From IMG/VR virus record IMGVR_UViG_2526164693_000019, positions 1 to 18,180 of that record: a stretch of 18,180 nucleotides of DNA; one strand, given 5' to 3'. How positions within the stretch are numbered: the stretch's first letter is position 1; each line of letters starts with the position of its first letter. Made by a program: the position numbers and the translations under genes. This DNA comes from a virus. Its lineage: Duplodnaviria > Heunggongvirae > Uroviricota > Caudoviricetes. Shown piece by piece: positions 2,919 through 3,992 of this stretch. A model generated the notes under the pieces. That model ran no database searches, was not told the origin of the DNA, and saw only the letters and a list, made by a program, of their open reading frames with translations.

Positions 2919-2958
2919 ACAATAAAAAACTGTTTTTGTGTCAACAGTTTTTAATTGT
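2919..2958. promoter_or_regulatory. Left operator-like palindrome: ACAATAAAAAACTGT, 10-bp spacer, ACAGTTTTTAATTGT; a perfect TTGACA -35 on the minus strand lies in the spacer
   Basis: 15-bp inverted-repeat arms matching 14/15, near-identical to the palindrome at 3954-3992. Minus-strand TTGACA is the reverse complement of plus 2939-2944. Located between the terminator of the repressor-TA operon and the ydfA-like gene, the position expected for a pL-type operator. Confidence 0.5.
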
Positions 2959-2968
2959 TGTTTTGGGC

Positions 2969-2990
2969 AAAAAAATCCCTCGAAAGAGGG
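2969..2990 (-). terminator. Rho-independent terminator of the repressor-antitoxin-toxin operon
   Basis: On the minus strand: CCCUC-UUUC-GAGGG hairpin (plus 2977-2990) followed immediately by AUUUUUUU (complement of plus 2969-2976), just downstream of the toxin stop at 3010. Confidence 0.6.
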
Positions 2991-3009
2991 AGTATGAAAA
3001 TTGTTCAAC

Positions 3010-3297
3010 TCAGATAGAGAAGGGAAATTGTCGCCGAGAATGTGTCACGCTTACAATCTCAATGCTTGAAGCAGCTACTCTGTACAGGATTATGTAGTTA
3101 GGGTGGGTCACGATCTCTCTCAATCCAGAAACCCGTTCGCTTGGTGGATATAAGTACGGATGCTCAGATAGAGGTAATACCGATGTTTCAATGCGTATTT
3201 TTAGTCTACGTGCTGCCGGTGGGTTCTCCTTGGCGATGTAAGTTATGATCTGGCGCAAATCATCGCGAGCAGACGGTAGCCATAAAATGGGTAACAT
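3010..3297 (-). CDS. parE: RelE/ParE-family type II toxin (95 aa)
   Basis: Product MLPILWLPSARDDLRQIITYIAKENPPAARRL...GLREIV..HPNYIILYRV...IEIVSVTHSRRQF has the ParE/RelE-like pattern. Its start overlaps the antitoxin stop by 1 nt (TAATG). This is the classic antitoxin-then-toxin order. Confidence 0.75.
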   Translation of the reverse strand: MLPILWLPSARDDLRQIITYIAKENPPAARRLKIRIETSVLPLSEHPYLYPPSERVSGLREIVTHPNYIILYRVAASSIEIVSVTHSRRQFPFSI

Positions 3298-3488
3298 TAC
3301 TCGCTCTTGTTAGTTACAGCAATTTGAGCAATAAGATTTTCCATTTCAGCCATTACCTCGTCATGTGGAATTGCGGGGCGAGTGTCTGCAAGGCTTGACG
3401 TTACTTTAGTGCGCAACCATTCGTTGTAACTGTTTTCTTGTTCGGTAGTTTCGAATTCTGAAACTATCGGAGAAAGGGCTGTACCCAT
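3297..3488 (-). CDS. paaA: Small antitoxin (63 aa), PaaA-like partner of ParE
   Basis: 63-aa acidic protein immediately upstream of, and translationally coupled to, the ParE-like toxin. Length and position match recalled PaaA antitoxins of the three-component paaR-paaA-parE systems in E. coli O157:H7 prophages. Assigned from recall, not a search. Confidence 0.6.
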   Translation of the reverse strand: MGTALSPIVSEFETTEQENSYNEWLRTKVTSSLADTRPAIPHDEVMAEMENLIAQIAVTNKSE

Positions 3489-3515
3489 GGCATAACTCCT
3501 CTTCTTGTACTGTGG

Positions 3516-3917
3516 TCACGCCCGGCGGCTTTTTTGTGCCGCCAGCCACCTAGCAATGGTTTCTTCCATTGATTTTTTCTTGTCTTTGATTTCTTGAAGC
3601 ATTTTTTCTTGGTCTTCCTCAGGAAACGCACTAAAAGCTTGGAGCAGTTCGCGTTGGCGAGGACCAATTTTCATCGTGTCAGGGGTGAAAATTTGCTCAC
3701 ACTCTTCAGGAGGCAATAAAAACCAATGCAATGGATGCCCTGAAACCTCAACCAGTTTATCCAAACTTGAGGCTTTAGGTGTAGCCTTACCGCTGACCCA
3801 TTGTTGAACAGTTTGTTGTGTCACACCAATTCTACGGGCAAGCTCAGCCTGGCTCCATCCAGTTTCCTGAAGAAGCTTGCTGATTCTGTACATAGATACT
3901 TCTAGGGCGCTCATCAT
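3516..3917 (-). CDS. HTH (XRE-family) repressor, DicA/PaaR-like; candidate prophage immunity repressor and TA regulator
   Basis: N-terminal helix-turn-helix ISKLLQETGWSQAELARRIGVTQQTVQQWVSGKATP. Divergent from the Cro-like gene across a palindromic operator. Same strand as, and 27 bp upstream of, the antitoxin-toxin pair. No obvious Shine-Dalgarno, so possibly leaderless. Confidence 0.7.
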   Translation of the reverse strand: MMSALEVSMYRISKLLQETGWSQAELARRIGVTQQTVQQWVSGKATPKASSLDKLVEVSGHPLHWFLLPPEECEQIFTPDTMKIGPRQRELLQAFSAFPEEDQEKMLQEIKDKKKSMEETIARWLAAQKSRRA

Positions 3918-3953
3918 TATTCAATTTTACAGGTAAATACTGTTAAAAGCATC

Positions 3954-3992
3954 ACAATAAAAAACTGTTGATTGCATACAGTTTTTTATTGT
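3954..3992. promoter_or_regulatory. Right operator-like palindrome: perfect 15-bp arms ACAATAAAAAACTGT / ACAGTTTTTTATTGT with 9-bp spacer, between divergent repressor and Cro-like genes
   Basis: Perfect inverted repeat read directly from the sequence. A TATAGT -10-like hexamer at 4003-4008 lies just downstream, before the AGAGGAGG Shine-Dalgarno and ATG at 4026. Confidence 0.55.

What the first reader, a model, noticed from the sequence alone, without database searches (positions are those of the whole stretch)
2919..3992. Two copies of an unusually long 15-9/10-15 palindrome bracket the repressor-TA operon (OL/OR-like operator pair)
ACAATAAAAAACTGT, spacer, ACAGTTTTTTATTGT occurs perfectly at 3954-3992 and with one mismatch at 2919-2958. 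One sits between the divergent repressor and Cro-like genes; the other sits just upstream of the leftward early operon (ydfA-like through dicB) with a perfect TTGACA in its spacer. The arms are AT-rich, so this is more likely a protein site than a transcript hairpin. The 39-bp length with A-tracts is longer than typical lambdoid operators.
Basis: seen in the sequence. Interest (0 to 1): 0.5.

Follow-up and report, generated by a model that had tools for sequence, protein, structure and literature searches.

The report
Prophage repressor operators OR and OL

Summary
ACAATAAAAAACTGT and its reverse complement occur four times with 0-1 mismatch (2919-2958 and 3954-3992), against 0.01 expected by chance.

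The functional unit is not a 39-bp palindrome. It is a 15-bp dyad, ACA(A/G)T-W5-A(C/T)TGT. The window has five copies:
- OR1 3978-3992
- OR2 3954-3968
- OL1 2919-2933
- OL2 2944-2958

A matrix built only from relatives' sites scores these five at 18-19.6 bits; the next best site in 18 kb scores 9.5.

Repressor homologues with the same recognition helix (Salmonella, Klebsiella, Pluralibacter, Morganella, Arsenophonus) keep three sites at -75/-51/-26 from the repressor ATG. Wherever enough downstream sequence was available, they also keep a downstream pair 23-25 bp apart. Neighbouring sites there are often not inverted copies of each other.

The window is prophage CP-933M/Sp4 of E. coli O157:H7. 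It carries the paaR-paaA-parE / ydaS-ydaT switch, paralogous to the characterised CP-933P switch, but with a different DNA-binding domain and different operators.

The half-site equals that of the phage 434 operator (ACAAT), with one extra central base pair. The sites interlock with the predicted PR, PRM (leaderless) and PL promoters at lambda-like positions.

Verdict: a new member of a known kind, of modest interest.

The parts
2914..2919 (-). Predicted PL -10 hexamer TAGATT. Its first T is the last T of OL1.
   Evidence: Read from the sequence. The same operator/-10 overlap is seen in relatives (TAGATT, TAGCCT, TAGCAT, TAATCT). It aligns with TAAACT in the PL region of CP-933P, where flank homology resumes. 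Inferred; the transcription start has not been mapped.
2919..2933 (.). OL1, a 15-bp operator (ACAATAAAAAACTGT on the + strand) lying in the PL spacer.
   Evidence: Scores 19.6 bits with a matrix built from relatives only. A conserved downstream site pair is present in relatives.
2939..2944 (-). Predicted PL -35 hexamer TTGACA, 19 nt from the -10 (18 nt in other E. coli variants).
2944..2958 (.). OL2, a 15-bp operator (ACAGTTTTTAATTGT on the + strand) immediately upstream of the PL -35.
   Evidence: Scores 18.0 bits.
2969..2991 (-). Intrinsic terminator ending the paaR1-paaA1-parE1 operon (TCCCTCTTTCGAGGGA followed by a T-run).
   Evidence: Equivalent hairpin-plus-T-run sequences precede OL2 in L002, L010 and L015.
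3010..3297 (-). ParE-family toxin (ParE1-like).
   Evidence: Pfam ParE_toxin, E = 2.9e-17. Matches ParE2 structure 5cw7, E = 3e-36.
3297..3488 (-). PaaA-family antitoxin (PaaA1-like).
   Evidence: Pfam PaaA2, E = 5.6e-19. Matches PaaA2 structure 3zbe, E = 1.4e-20.
3516..3917 (-). Immunity repressor (PaaR1-like, 133 aa). It has an N-terminal Cro/CI-type HTH with recognition helix TQQTVQQW, a disordered linker, and a C-terminal helical hairpin shared with PaaR2.
3924..3929 (-). Predicted PRM -10 hexamer TAAAAT. It ends 7 nt before the A of the repressor ATG, implying a leaderless mRNA.
   Evidence: Read from the sequence. Conserved as TAAAAT, TAGAAT, TATAAT or TAAGAT at the same distance in relatives. 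Leaderless paaR2 was shown experimentally in CP-933P (PMC8630535).
3929..3943 (.). OR3, a 15-bp operator (ACAGGTAAATACTGT) centred at -19 of PRM.
   Evidence: Scores 18.6 bits. A site sits at the same offset (-26 from the ATG) in the relatives.
3954..3968 (.). OR2, a 15-bp operator (ACAATAAAAAACTGT) centred at -44 of PRM and about -43 of PR.
   Evidence: Scores 19.6 bits.
3968..3973 (+). Predicted PR -35 hexamer TTGATT. Its first T is the last T of OR2.
   Evidence: TTGAYN is conserved at this position in relatives. Inferred.
3978..3992 (.). OR1, a 15-bp operator (ACAGTTTTTTATTGT) lying in the PR spacer.
   Evidence: Scores 19.3 bits.
3992..3997 (+). Predicted PR -10 hexamer TAGGCT, with an 18-nt spacer.
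   Evidence: The hexamers TAGTCT, TACTCT, TAGTAT and TAATAT occupy the same position in relatives. TAGGCT becomes TAGTCT in E. coli A8, whereas the alternative TATAGT (4003-4008) is lost in strain EC-107. Inferred.
4026..4298 (+). YdaS (Cro-like) regulator with recognition helix AQQTVWQW, closely resembling that of the repressor.
   Evidence: Pfam YdaS_toxin. Alignment A2.
4275..4292 (.). Perfect YdaT (CII-like) binding site TTGATTCATGAAAATCAA at the ydaS/ydaT junction, in the PRE-like region.
   Evidence: A 0-mismatch match to TTGATT-N6-AATCAA. This motif and location were footprinted for CP-933P YdaT (PMC9986795).
4282..4707 (+). YdaT (CII-like) regulator.
   Evidence: Pfam YdaT_toxin. E = 1.4e-82 to the CP-933P YdaT structure 8bt1; the alignment shown, to the near-identical entry 3c4r (E = 3.9e-83), is about 90% identical over the full length.

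Best explanation
The four 'arms' plus a fifth site are the operators of the immunity switch of the lambdoid cryptic prophage CP-933M/Sp4.

What binds. Each 15-bp dyad, ACA(A/G)T-W5-A(C/T)TGT, is most likely bound by one dimer of the 133-aa PaaR1-type repressor through its 434-like helix-turn-helix. The outer ACA(A/G)T would be read directly, and the A/T-rich centre would tune affinity. The Cro-like YdaS, whose recognition helix is nearly the same, most likely binds the same sites.

Right operator. OR1 sits in the spacer of PR, OR2 abuts the PR -35 and is centred at -44 of PRM, and OR3 sits in the spacer of PRM, centred at -19. Repressor at OR1 and OR2 would shut off ydaS-ydaT and the rightward early genes, and could activate the weak, leaderless PRM. 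At high repressor levels OR3 would shut PRM off.

Left operator. OL1 and OL2 lie on PL in the same way as OR1 and OR2 lie on PR. They would repress the leftward ydfA...dicF-dicB...exo operon.

Looping. The repressor shares its C-terminal domain with PaaR2, which forms octamers. The four strongest sites (OR1, OR2, OL1, OL2), about 1.03 kb apart, could therefore be bridged by one octamer that loops out the paaR1-paaA1-parE1 operon.

Shown here: the existence, number, position, conservation and specificity of the sites, and the gene identities. Inferred: binding by these proteins, the exact promoter hexamers, activation of PRM, and looping.
For: 1. Four arms with 0-1 mismatch, against 0.01 expected. 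Five of the eight ACA-N9-TGT matches in 18 kb lie in the two control regions.

2. A position weight matrix built only from sites in other genera scores exactly these five sites at 18.0-19.6 bits. The next best is 9.5, and shuffles give on average 0.27 sites at or above 12 bits.

3. Relatives with recognition helix TQQTVQQW or SQQTIQQW keep sites at -75/-51/-26 from the repressor ATG (within 1-2 bp in L013 and Arsenophonus). These are Salmonella at 80% identity, K. michiganensis 68%, Pluralibacter, Morganella, L013, and Arsenophonus at 48%. In Morganella and Arsenophonus one of the three sites has a degenerate half. All but L013, whose contig ends about 300 bp past the repressor gene, also keep a pair 23-25 bp apart downstream of variable cargo genes. 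The surrounding DNA is diverged.

4. Among 28 sites, positions 1-3 and 14-15 are invariant, positions 4-5 and 11-13 are restricted, and positions 6-10 are only A/T-rich.

5. Among E. coli variants, substitutions fall in the spacers and flanks but never in the OR 15-mers, setting aside a 1-nt shorter T-run in OR1 of the SS17 assembly that may be a sequencing error.

6. Loci with a changed recognition helix have changed half-sites. SQQTVQRW goes with ACAC...GTGT in L012 and L016, and TQQTIQKW goes with ACAAC...GTTGT in L017 and L018. The unrelated HTH of true PaaR2 goes with GTTTAGT repeats.

7. The repressor HTH aligns with 434 repressor and keeps Gln at the positions aligned with 434 Q28, Q29 and Q33. 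The 434 reference operator is ACAAT-N4-ATTGT, with 5+5 contacted bases and a non-contacted centre read indirectly (PMC1636474).

8. The helices of YdaS (AQQTVWQW) and the repressor (TQQTVQQW) are nearly identical, and the QQ pair is invariant in both families.

9. In the paralogous CP-933P system, EMSA, DNase I footprints and reporters show that PaaR2 and YdaS bind overlapping operators over PR and PRM and repress PL, that paaR2 mRNA is leaderless, and that PaaR2 forms octamers (PMC8630535).

10. The 81-bp OR region occurs once per genome in 510 of 5,426 E. coli genomes (median 1 place per genome; highest 3), with full-length matches, and in every copy examined it lies at the repressor locus.
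Against: There are no binding, footprint or transcription-start data for this prophage. All protein-DNA assignments are by analogy and comparative genomics.

The predicted PR and PL -10 hexamers (TAGGCT, TAGATT) and the 18-19-nt spacers are non-ideal, so the real promoters could differ.

No OL3 was found, so the lambda analogy is incomplete.

The 434 operator is 14 bp, not 15 bp, so the geometry of the bound dimer must differ.

In this prophage and its closest E. coli relatives, the neighbouring sites really are near-perfect inverted copies: OR is 15/15, and OL is 15/15 in strains A8, SHP24 and EC-107. Some selection or mutational process that favours the larger palindrome in this lineage cannot be excluded.

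The covariation between helix and half-site rests on few loci and is imperfect. L010 has R at the variable position but ACA(A/G)C half-sites.
Confidence: 0.85

Rival explanations
1. The whole 39/40-bp palindrome is the recognition unit. A single symmetric oligomer, for example a repressor tetramer with fixed geometry or another protein, would need both arms in inverted orientation, so this would be an unusually long operator.
For: OR is a perfect 15-9-15 palindrome and OL is 14/15. In E. coli A8, SHP24 and EC-107 both OL arms carry the same variant (ACAATTAAAAACTGT), which keeps OL a perfect palindrome. In most relatives the inverted identity is equal to or slightly above the direct identity.
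Against: Each arm is by itself a dyad with conserved ACA...TGT ends, and a third, solitary site (OR3) is conserved at a fixed offset. E. coli OkiPb01712 has the same recognition helix and identical OR 15-mers, but its OL sites are only 9/15 complementary. Klebsiella OR1/OR2 are 10/15 complementary and L013 11/15, and direct identity is about equal to inverted identity wherever the centres are mixed A/T. The arm spacing varies from 8 to 10 nt. Cooperative binding of two dimers to adjacent sites explains the same data.
Confidence: 0.07
2. The palindromes act as nucleic-acid hairpins or cruciforms. Examples would be an RNA stem in read-through or PRE transcripts, a terminator or attenuator, or a cruciform that affects supercoiling or recombination at the borders of the TA cassette.
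For: The single strands fold well: -13.4 and -10.4 kcal/mol as DNA, z-scores -6.7 and -4.0. The two copies bracket the repressor-TA module, whose borders are mosaic joints between prophages.
Against: The stems are A/T-rich, with the T-run inside the stem rather than after it. A separate G+C-rich terminator already ends the operon at 2969-2991. If the predicted promoters are right, PR, PRM and PL all start outside the palindromes. Relatives fold more weakly (-6 to -10 kcal/mol), and stem complementarity is not maintained by compensatory changes in the centres. Conservation follows the half-site pattern of a protein site, not a stem.
Confidence: 0.04
3. The A-tracts and T-tracts are mainly promoter architecture, such as UP-element-like A-tracts upstream of the -35 and bent DNA. 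The repeat would then reflect duplicated promoter modules (PR and PL) rather than repressor sites.
For: In both PR and PL the upstream site carries an A5-6 tract at about -44 to -39, where I recall proximal UP subsites lying (from memory). PR and PL share the same operator/-35/-10 layout.
Against: The A-tracts are not conserved in relatives; only A/T richness is. The ACA...TGT ends, which have no promoter role, are invariant. OR3 has the same dyad at PRM. Half-sites change with the recognition helix. A dual role for the A-tracts is compatible with the best explanation and is not an alternative to it.
Confidence: 0.03

Closest known systems
The paaR2-paaA2-parE2 / ydaS-ydaT immunity switch of prophage CP-933P (Sp12) in E. 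coli O157:H7 (Jurenas et al. 2021, PMC8630535; Prolic-Kalinsek et al. 2023, PMC9986795)
   Same: The gene order is the same: PL, terminator, parE, paaA and paaR on one side, and PRM/PR, ydaS and ydaT on the other. The repressor start is leaderless-type. There are operator clusters at OR and OL. The YdaT protein is about 90% identical, and its TTGATT-N6-AATCAA site sits at the ydaS/ydaT junction. The C-terminal domain of the repressor is homologous. The repressor has no RecA-cleavable peptidase domain.
   Different: The repressor's N-terminal DNA-binding domain is unrelated (PaaR2 starts MQKKE... and is 123 aa), and the YdaS is of a different type. The operators are different: here 15-bp ACA(A/G)T-W5-A(C/T)TGT, three at OR and two at OL; there 18-bp GTTTAGTAA-type inverted repeats, four at OR and three at OL. 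The two prophages should therefore be heteroimmune. No experiments on the CP-933M operators were found in the searchable literature.
Phage 434 repressor/Cro and their 14-bp operators (ACAAT-N4-ATTGT)
   Same: 434 repressor is the best PDB sequence match of the HTH, and Gln is kept at the positions aligned with 434 Q28, Q29 and Q33. That these three Gln contact the bases is from memory. The half-site ACAAT (or ACAGT) is the same. The outer 5+5 positions are conserved and the centre is a variable A/T-rich stretch (PMC1636474). Repressor and Cro share the operators.
   Different: The operator is 15 bp, one extra central base pair. The C-terminal domain is a short helical hairpin, not a LexA/S24-type domain. 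Overall identity is limited to the HTH, about 35-40% over 55 residues.
Phage lambda OR/OL with CI, Cro, CII, PRM, PR, PL and octamer-mediated looping
   Same: OR is tripartite and sits between divergent promoters. The operator centres lie at about -19, -44 and -68 from the PRM start; I recall -19, -42 and -66 for lambda (from memory). Adjacent sites are 24-25 bp apart. The repressor mRNA is leaderless. A distant OL lies beyond the cargo genes that follow the repressor gene (rexAB in lambda, paaA-parE here). The homologue PaaR2 forms octamers.
   Different: The proteins are not homologous to CI, Cro or CII beyond the generic HTH. The operators are 15 bp rather than 17 bp. OL has two detectable sites rather than three. 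OL-OR separation is about 1.0 kb, against about 2.3 kb in lambda (from memory). There is no SOS-cleavable domain.

Membership tests
Lambdoid immunity-region operators (OR/OL bound by repressor and Cro) | Multiple related dyad-symmetric sites clustered between divergent repressor and cro-like genes | tested here: met
   Three ACA-N9-TGT sites at 3929-3992 lie between the HTH repressor (3516-3917, minus) and ydaS (4026-4298, plus).
Lambdoid immunity-region operators (OR/OL bound by repressor and Cro) | A second cluster of the same sites at a leftward early promoter, beyond the repressor operon | tested here: met
   OL1 and OL2 at 2919-2958 carry TTGACA and TAGATT on the minus strand, downstream of the operon terminator and upstream of ydfA...dicF-dicB.
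Lambdoid immunity-region operators (OR/OL bound by repressor and Cro) | Sites overlap the -35/-10 elements of PR, PRM and PL | tested here: inconclusive
   Sequence-predicted hexamers interlock with the sites in the same way in this window and in the relatives examined. The generic promoter scan did not call them, and no transcription-start data exist for this prophage.
Lambdoid immunity-region operators (OR/OL bound by repressor and Cro) | Sites are conserved with, and co-vary with, the repressor's DNA-binding specificity | tested here: met
   The same helix goes with the same ACA(A/G)T dyads at the same offsets across six genera. Altered helices go with altered half-sites, and the unrelated HTH of PaaR2 goes with unrelated repeats.
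Lambdoid immunity-region operators (OR/OL bound by repressor and Cro) | Physical binding by the repressor and Cro, and repression of the flanking promoters | not testable with these tools
   Shown only for the paralogous CP-933P system (PMC8630535). It needs EMSA, footprinting and reporter assays for CP-933M.
Three-component paaR-paaA-parE toxin-antitoxin module | ParE-family toxin preceded by a PaaA-family antitoxin that lacks a DNA-binding domain | tested here: met
   Pfam ParE_toxin and PaaA2 match, as do the PDB entries for ParE2 and PaaA2.
Three-component paaR-paaA-parE toxin-antitoxin module | A separate upstream regulator gene in the same operon, homologous to PaaR2 | tested here: inconclusive
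   The 133-aa HTH gene lies directly upstream with no terminator in between. Homology to true PaaR2 is limited to the C-terminal ~98 residues at 42% identity, and the N-terminal HTH is different. The literature states that a homologous system lies on CP-933M.
434-type repressor/operator system | HTH with Gln-Gln at the start of the recognition helix and a further Gln five residues on, reading ACAA(T) half-sites | tested here: met
   The alignment to 434 repressor keeps Gln at all three positions, and the half-site consensus is ACA(A/G)T. The assignment of contacts is from memory of the 434 co-crystal structures.
434-type repressor/operator system | 14-bp operator (5+4+5) | tested here: not met
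   All 28 aligned sites are 15 bp (5+5+5). The system therefore resembles 434 in its recognition mode but is not filed as a member.
434-type repressor/operator system | C-terminal LexA/S24-like dimerisation and autocleavage domain | tested here: not met
   There is no Peptidase_S24 hit. The model shows a 47-residue helical hairpin. The Sp4 repressor is reported to lack a peptidase domain (PMC2669165).

The most novel reading that the evidence does not exclude
The CP-933M/Sp4 switch may define a distinct, widespread immunity specificity in Enterobacterales prophages, in which a 434-like Gln-Gln-x3-Gln recognition helix reads ACA(A/G)T half-sites across a 15-bp (5+5+5) dyad. One repressor octamer, assembled through the C-terminal hairpin shared with PaaR2, would bind exactly the four high-affinity sites OR1, OR2, OL1 and OL2 and loop out the 1-kb toxin-antitoxin operon, while OR3 has no OL3 partner. 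The opposed A6/T6 centres, which create the 39-bp palindromes in the O157 lineage, would be selected: A-tracts upstream of the -35 of PR and PL would act as UP-like or bending elements, tuning both affinity and promoter strength. Across the family, the residue at the third Gln position would predict operator positions 4-5, giving a readable immunity code.
Probability: 0.3. Interest if true: 0.4.

Novelty: new member of a known kind. Interest (0 to 1): 0.25.

Why it matters
This gives a concrete, testable operator map (five sites and three promoters) for the second paaR-paaA-parE prophage switch of E. coli O157:H7, which has been mentioned in the literature but, as far as I could find, not dissected.

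It predicts that CP-933M and CP-933P are heteroimmune, even though they share YdaT, its binding site, and the repressor's oligomerisation domain.

It also shows that the repressor family is modular. The DNA-binding domains and operators are swapped, while the C-terminal domain and the promoter scaffold are kept.

Finally, it corrects the idea that an exceptional 39-bp operator exists here. None of this changes general understanding of lambdoid switches.

Tried and rejected
1. Dispersed repeat. The 81-bp OR region occurs at a median of one place per genome (highest 3) in 510 of 5,426 E. coli genomes, and in every copy examined it lies at the repressor locus. The matrix finds no other site in the window. 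Rejected.

2. Identity with the published CP-933P operators. The true PaaR2 locus (L014) has GTTTAGT repeats and no ACA-N9-TGT sites. Rejected; this is the paralogue.

3. My initial guess that the 132-aa E. coli homologue P0062 was PaaR2 was wrong. PaaR2 starts MQKKE. P0062 is a third immunity type that carries paaA-parE.

4. TATAGT (4003-4008) as the PR -10. It has no usable -35 at 16-18 nt and is mutated to TGTAGT in strain EC-107. Set aside in favour of TAGGCT.

5. A third OL site. Nothing resembling the dyad lies about 25 bp on either side of OL1 and OL2.

6. Cultured phages with this immunity region. None were found at the DNA level; only ydaT-like segments matched.

7. The generic promoter scan did not call PR, PRM or PL.

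8. The fold search of the AlphaFold model gave only generic XRE/434/P22/SinR HTH matches (E > 1e-3) and nothing informative for the C-terminal hairpin.

9. Literature searches for the operator sequences or for 'paaR1-paaA1-parE1' found nothing. Hallez et al. 2010 is not in the searchable library.
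Full report
**Observation**

ACAATAAAAAACTGT (3954-3968), a 9-nt spacer and ACAGTTTTTTATTGT (3978-3992) form a perfect 15-9-15 palindrome. ACAATAAAAAACTGT (2919-2933), a 10-nt spacer and ACAGTTTTTAATTGT (2944-2958) form a second one with one mismatch. With up to 1 mismatch allowed, these four arms are the only matches in the 18,180-base window. Shuffles give 0.01 expected, and none of 200 reaches four. TTGACA lies on the minus strand at 2939-2944.

**Where the window comes from**

The region 2700-4300 is 100% identical to E. 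coli O157:H7 chromosomes. It lies in a lambdoid prophage integrated next to yccA, with an ECs1072-family gene, dicB, an exonuclease, an integrase pseudogene and Q/RusA genes. This is Sakai prophage Sp4, equivalent to EDL933 CP-933M; the naming is from memory, supported by the ECs1072 marker.

The genes around the finding are as follows.
- A 133-aa HTH protein (3516-3917, minus), a PaaA-family antitoxin (3297-3488, minus) and a ParE toxin (3010-3297, minus). An intrinsic terminator follows them (2969-2991, minus).
- On the other strand, a YdaS/Cro-like gene (4026-4298) and a YdaT/CII-like gene (4282-4707).
- ParE and PaaA are clear but diverged homologues of ParE2 and PaaA2. YdaT is about 90% identical to the near-identical structure entry 3c4r and matches the CP-933P YdaT entry 8bt1 equally well.
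- The literature states that a homologue of paaR2-paaA2-parE2 lies on CP-933M (PMC8630535). This window is that paralogue.

**What the unit is**

Each 15-nt arm is itself a dyad of the form ACA-N9-TGT. Searching for that frame finds eight matches in the window, five of them in the two control regions. The fifth is ACAGGTAAATACTGT at 3929-3943, 25 bp from its neighbour.

Counted from the repressor ATG, in the repressor's orientation, the three right-hand sites start at -75, -51 and -26.

I collected homologues of the repressor and their loci.
- All relatives whose recognition helix is TQQTVQQW (or SQQTIQQW) have such sites at these offsets, within 1-2 bp in L013 and Arsenophonus. They are Salmonella at 80% identity, Klebsiella michiganensis at 68%, Pluralibacter, Morganella, the metagenomic L013, and Arsenophonus at 48%. 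In Morganella and Arsenophonus one of the three sites has a degenerate half.
- All but L013 also have a pair of such sites 23-25 bp apart downstream of the repressor, beyond cargo genes that differ from locus to locus. The L013 contig ends about 300 bp past the repressor gene and shows only a single downstream site.
- The rest of the intergenic DNA is diverged.

The 28 aligned sites give the consensus ACA(G/A)T-W5-A(C/T)TGT. The ends are invariant and the centre is merely A/T-rich.

A weight matrix built only from the relatives' sites, with none from this window, scores the five window sites at 18.0-19.6 bits. The next best of about 36,000 positions scores 9.5.

**Why the 39-bp palindrome is incidental**

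In the relatives, the two neighbouring sites resemble each other about equally in direct and inverted orientation, because each is nearly self-symmetric. Klebsiella OR1/OR2 are 10/15 complementary and L013 11/15.

The clearest case is E. coli OkiPb01712. It has the same recognition helix and identical OR 15-mers, but its OL sites (ACAGTTATTTATTGT and ACAGTTTTTACTTGT) are only 9/15 complementary.

Arm spacing varies from 8 to 10 nt. Among E. coli variants, substitutions hit the spacers and flanks. The OR1-OR2 spacer reads TGATTGCAT, TGATTGTGT, TGATCGCGT, TGATCGTGT or TGATCATGA, yet the three OR 15-mers never change. One assembly (SS17) has a 1-nt shorter T-run in OR1, which may be a sequencing error.

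The palindrome in the O157 lineage arises only because the non-conserved centres happen to be A6 in one site and T6 in the other. Hairpin folding is therefore strong here (-13.4 and -10.4 kcal/mol) and weaker in relatives. It follows from the dyad half-sites rather than from selection for a stem.

**Who binds**

The repressor's HTH is most similar to 434 repressor among solved structures. It keeps Gln at the positions aligned with 434 Q28, Q29 and Q33, in the helix TQQTVQQW. From memory, these are the base-contacting residues in 434.

The 434 reference operator is ACAAT-N4-ATTGT, with 5+5 contacted positions and a non-contacted centre that tunes affinity (PMC1636474). The sites here have the same half-site but a 5-bp centre. 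This is a resemblance in recognition mode, not membership of the 434 family.

The AlphaFold model shows a five-helix HTH (residues 4-67), a disordered linker (73-84) and a helical hairpin (86-132). The fold search found only generic Cro/CI-type HTH domains.

YdaS has a nearly identical recognition helix (AQQTVWQW), and the QQ pair is invariant in both families. This fits shared operators, as in lambda, 434 and CP-933P.

Specificity co-varies with the helix:
- SQQTVQRW goes with ACAC...GTGT (L012, L016).
- TQQTIQKW goes with ACAAC...GTTGT (L017, L018).
- True PaaR2 (MQKKE..., L014) has an unrelated N-terminal domain and the published GTTTAGT-type repeats, with no ACA-N9-TGT sites.

The covariation rests on few loci and is imperfect; L010 is an exception.

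**How it most likely works**

*PRM.* TAAAAT (3929-3924, minus) ends 7 nt before the A of the repressor ATG. The same arrangement is seen in all the relatives examined, and paaR2 mRNA was shown experimentally to be leaderless. OR3 fills the PRM spacer, and its last T is the first T of the -10.

*PR.* TTGATT (3968-3973), an 18-nt spacer and TAGGCT (3992-3997). OR2 abuts the -35 and OR1 fills the spacer.

*PL (minus strand).* TTGACA (2944-2939), a 19-nt spacer and TAGATT (2919-2914). OL2 and OL1 are placed exactly as OR2 and OR1 are on PR. Other E. coli have an 18-nt spacer.

This interlocking layout recurs in the relatives. The PL -10 also aligns with that of the CP-933P PL region, where homology of the flanks resumes.

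The operator centres lie at -19, -44 and -68 from the PRM start and, mirrored, from the predicted PR start. This is close to what I recall for lambda.

I therefore infer the following.
- Repressor at OR1 and OR2 and at OL1 and OL2 represses PR and PL.
- OR2-bound repressor may activate PRM.
- OR3 gives negative autoregulation.
- YdaS competes at the same sites.
- YdaT acts at its perfect site, TTGATTCATGAAAATCAA (4275-4292; PMC9986795), to drive PRE-like leftward transcription.

The repressor shares its C-terminal domain with PaaR2 (42% identity over 98 residues), and PaaR2 forms octamers. The four strong sites, about 1.03 kb apart, could therefore be bridged by an octamer. All binding, activation and looping steps are inferences.

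**Novelty and score**

This type of switch is known and was characterised experimentally in CP-933P. The CP-933M operators, their 15-bp 434-like dyad, OR3, and their conservation across Enterobacterales were not found in the searchable literature. Hallez et al. 2010 could not be read.

I class the finding as a new member of a known kind. The 'unusually long operator' is not supported. Interest is modest (0.25).

Noticed in passing
window 4275-4292: A perfect TTGATTCATGAAAATCAA lies at the end of ydaS, overlapping the ydaT start codon. It matches the YdaT operator OM (TTGATT-N6-AATCAA) that was footprinted in CP-933P. The CII-like/PRE-like branch of the switch therefore appears to be shared between two otherwise heteroimmune prophages.
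   Followed up: partly
window 3516-3917 (minus) compared with L014 2491-2862 (minus): The repressor here and true PaaR2 are mosaic. Their N-terminal DNA-binding domains are unrelated, but the C-terminal ~45 residues are highly similar (QxELLQxFSAFPE(E/D)(D/E)Q...ARW(L/I)AAQKxRRA). This is presumably the oligomerisation module, and it is exchanged independently of DNA specificity.
   Followed up: partly
window about 2745-2911 (minus strand, downstream of the predicted PL): A ~165-nt leader (…CCAACCACCCACCCCGCCCCACAGAACGCCGGGCAATACTTCGAGTTACC…) between PL and ydfA is conserved across prophages of different immunity types. It is seen in CP-933P-type loci, in Salmonella, and at 89% identity in E. 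coli K-12 at about 1.417 Mb. Thousands of E. coli genomes match this part of the query. Its function is unknown; it could be a nut-like or regulatory RNA element. Rfam finds nothing there.
   Followed up: no
L002, L004, L006, L007, L011 compared with window, L009, L012, L014: The slot between the repressor gene and OL carries different cargo in different relatives. It holds paaA-parE in this window and in at least three other immunity types, and unrelated small ORFs in Salmonella, Klebsiella, Pluralibacter and Morganella. It behaves as a moron-type insertion site bracketed by the operators.
   Followed up: partly
window 1285-1336 (minus): DicF sRNA (Rfam RF00039, 76.9 bits) lies in the leftward operon upstream of dicB. 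It would therefore fall under PL/OL control.
   Followed up: no
window 15862-16108 (plus) and 17517-17776: There are three tandem tRNA genes. Further on, the sRNAs STnc100 (207.7 bits, plus strand) and AsxR (88.1 bits, minus strand) lie in the late region of the prophage.
   Followed up: no
window 2934-2943 compared with L066, L065, L068, L015: The O157:H7 OL differs from that of other E. coli carriers by one extra T in the OL1-OL2 spacer, which makes the PL spacer 19 nt instead of 18. It also has a T-to-A change that makes OL1 identical to OR2 over 16 nt. The SS17 assembly (L067) shows a 1-nt shorter T-run in OR1 and lacks an exact ACA-N9-TGT match at OL1; these differences may be homopolymer sequencing errors.
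   Followed up: partly
L012 3004-3506: A relative with the ACAC...GTGT operator type carries a second toxin-antitoxin pair (YoeB/YefM-type) just beyond its paaA-parE module.
   Followed up: no
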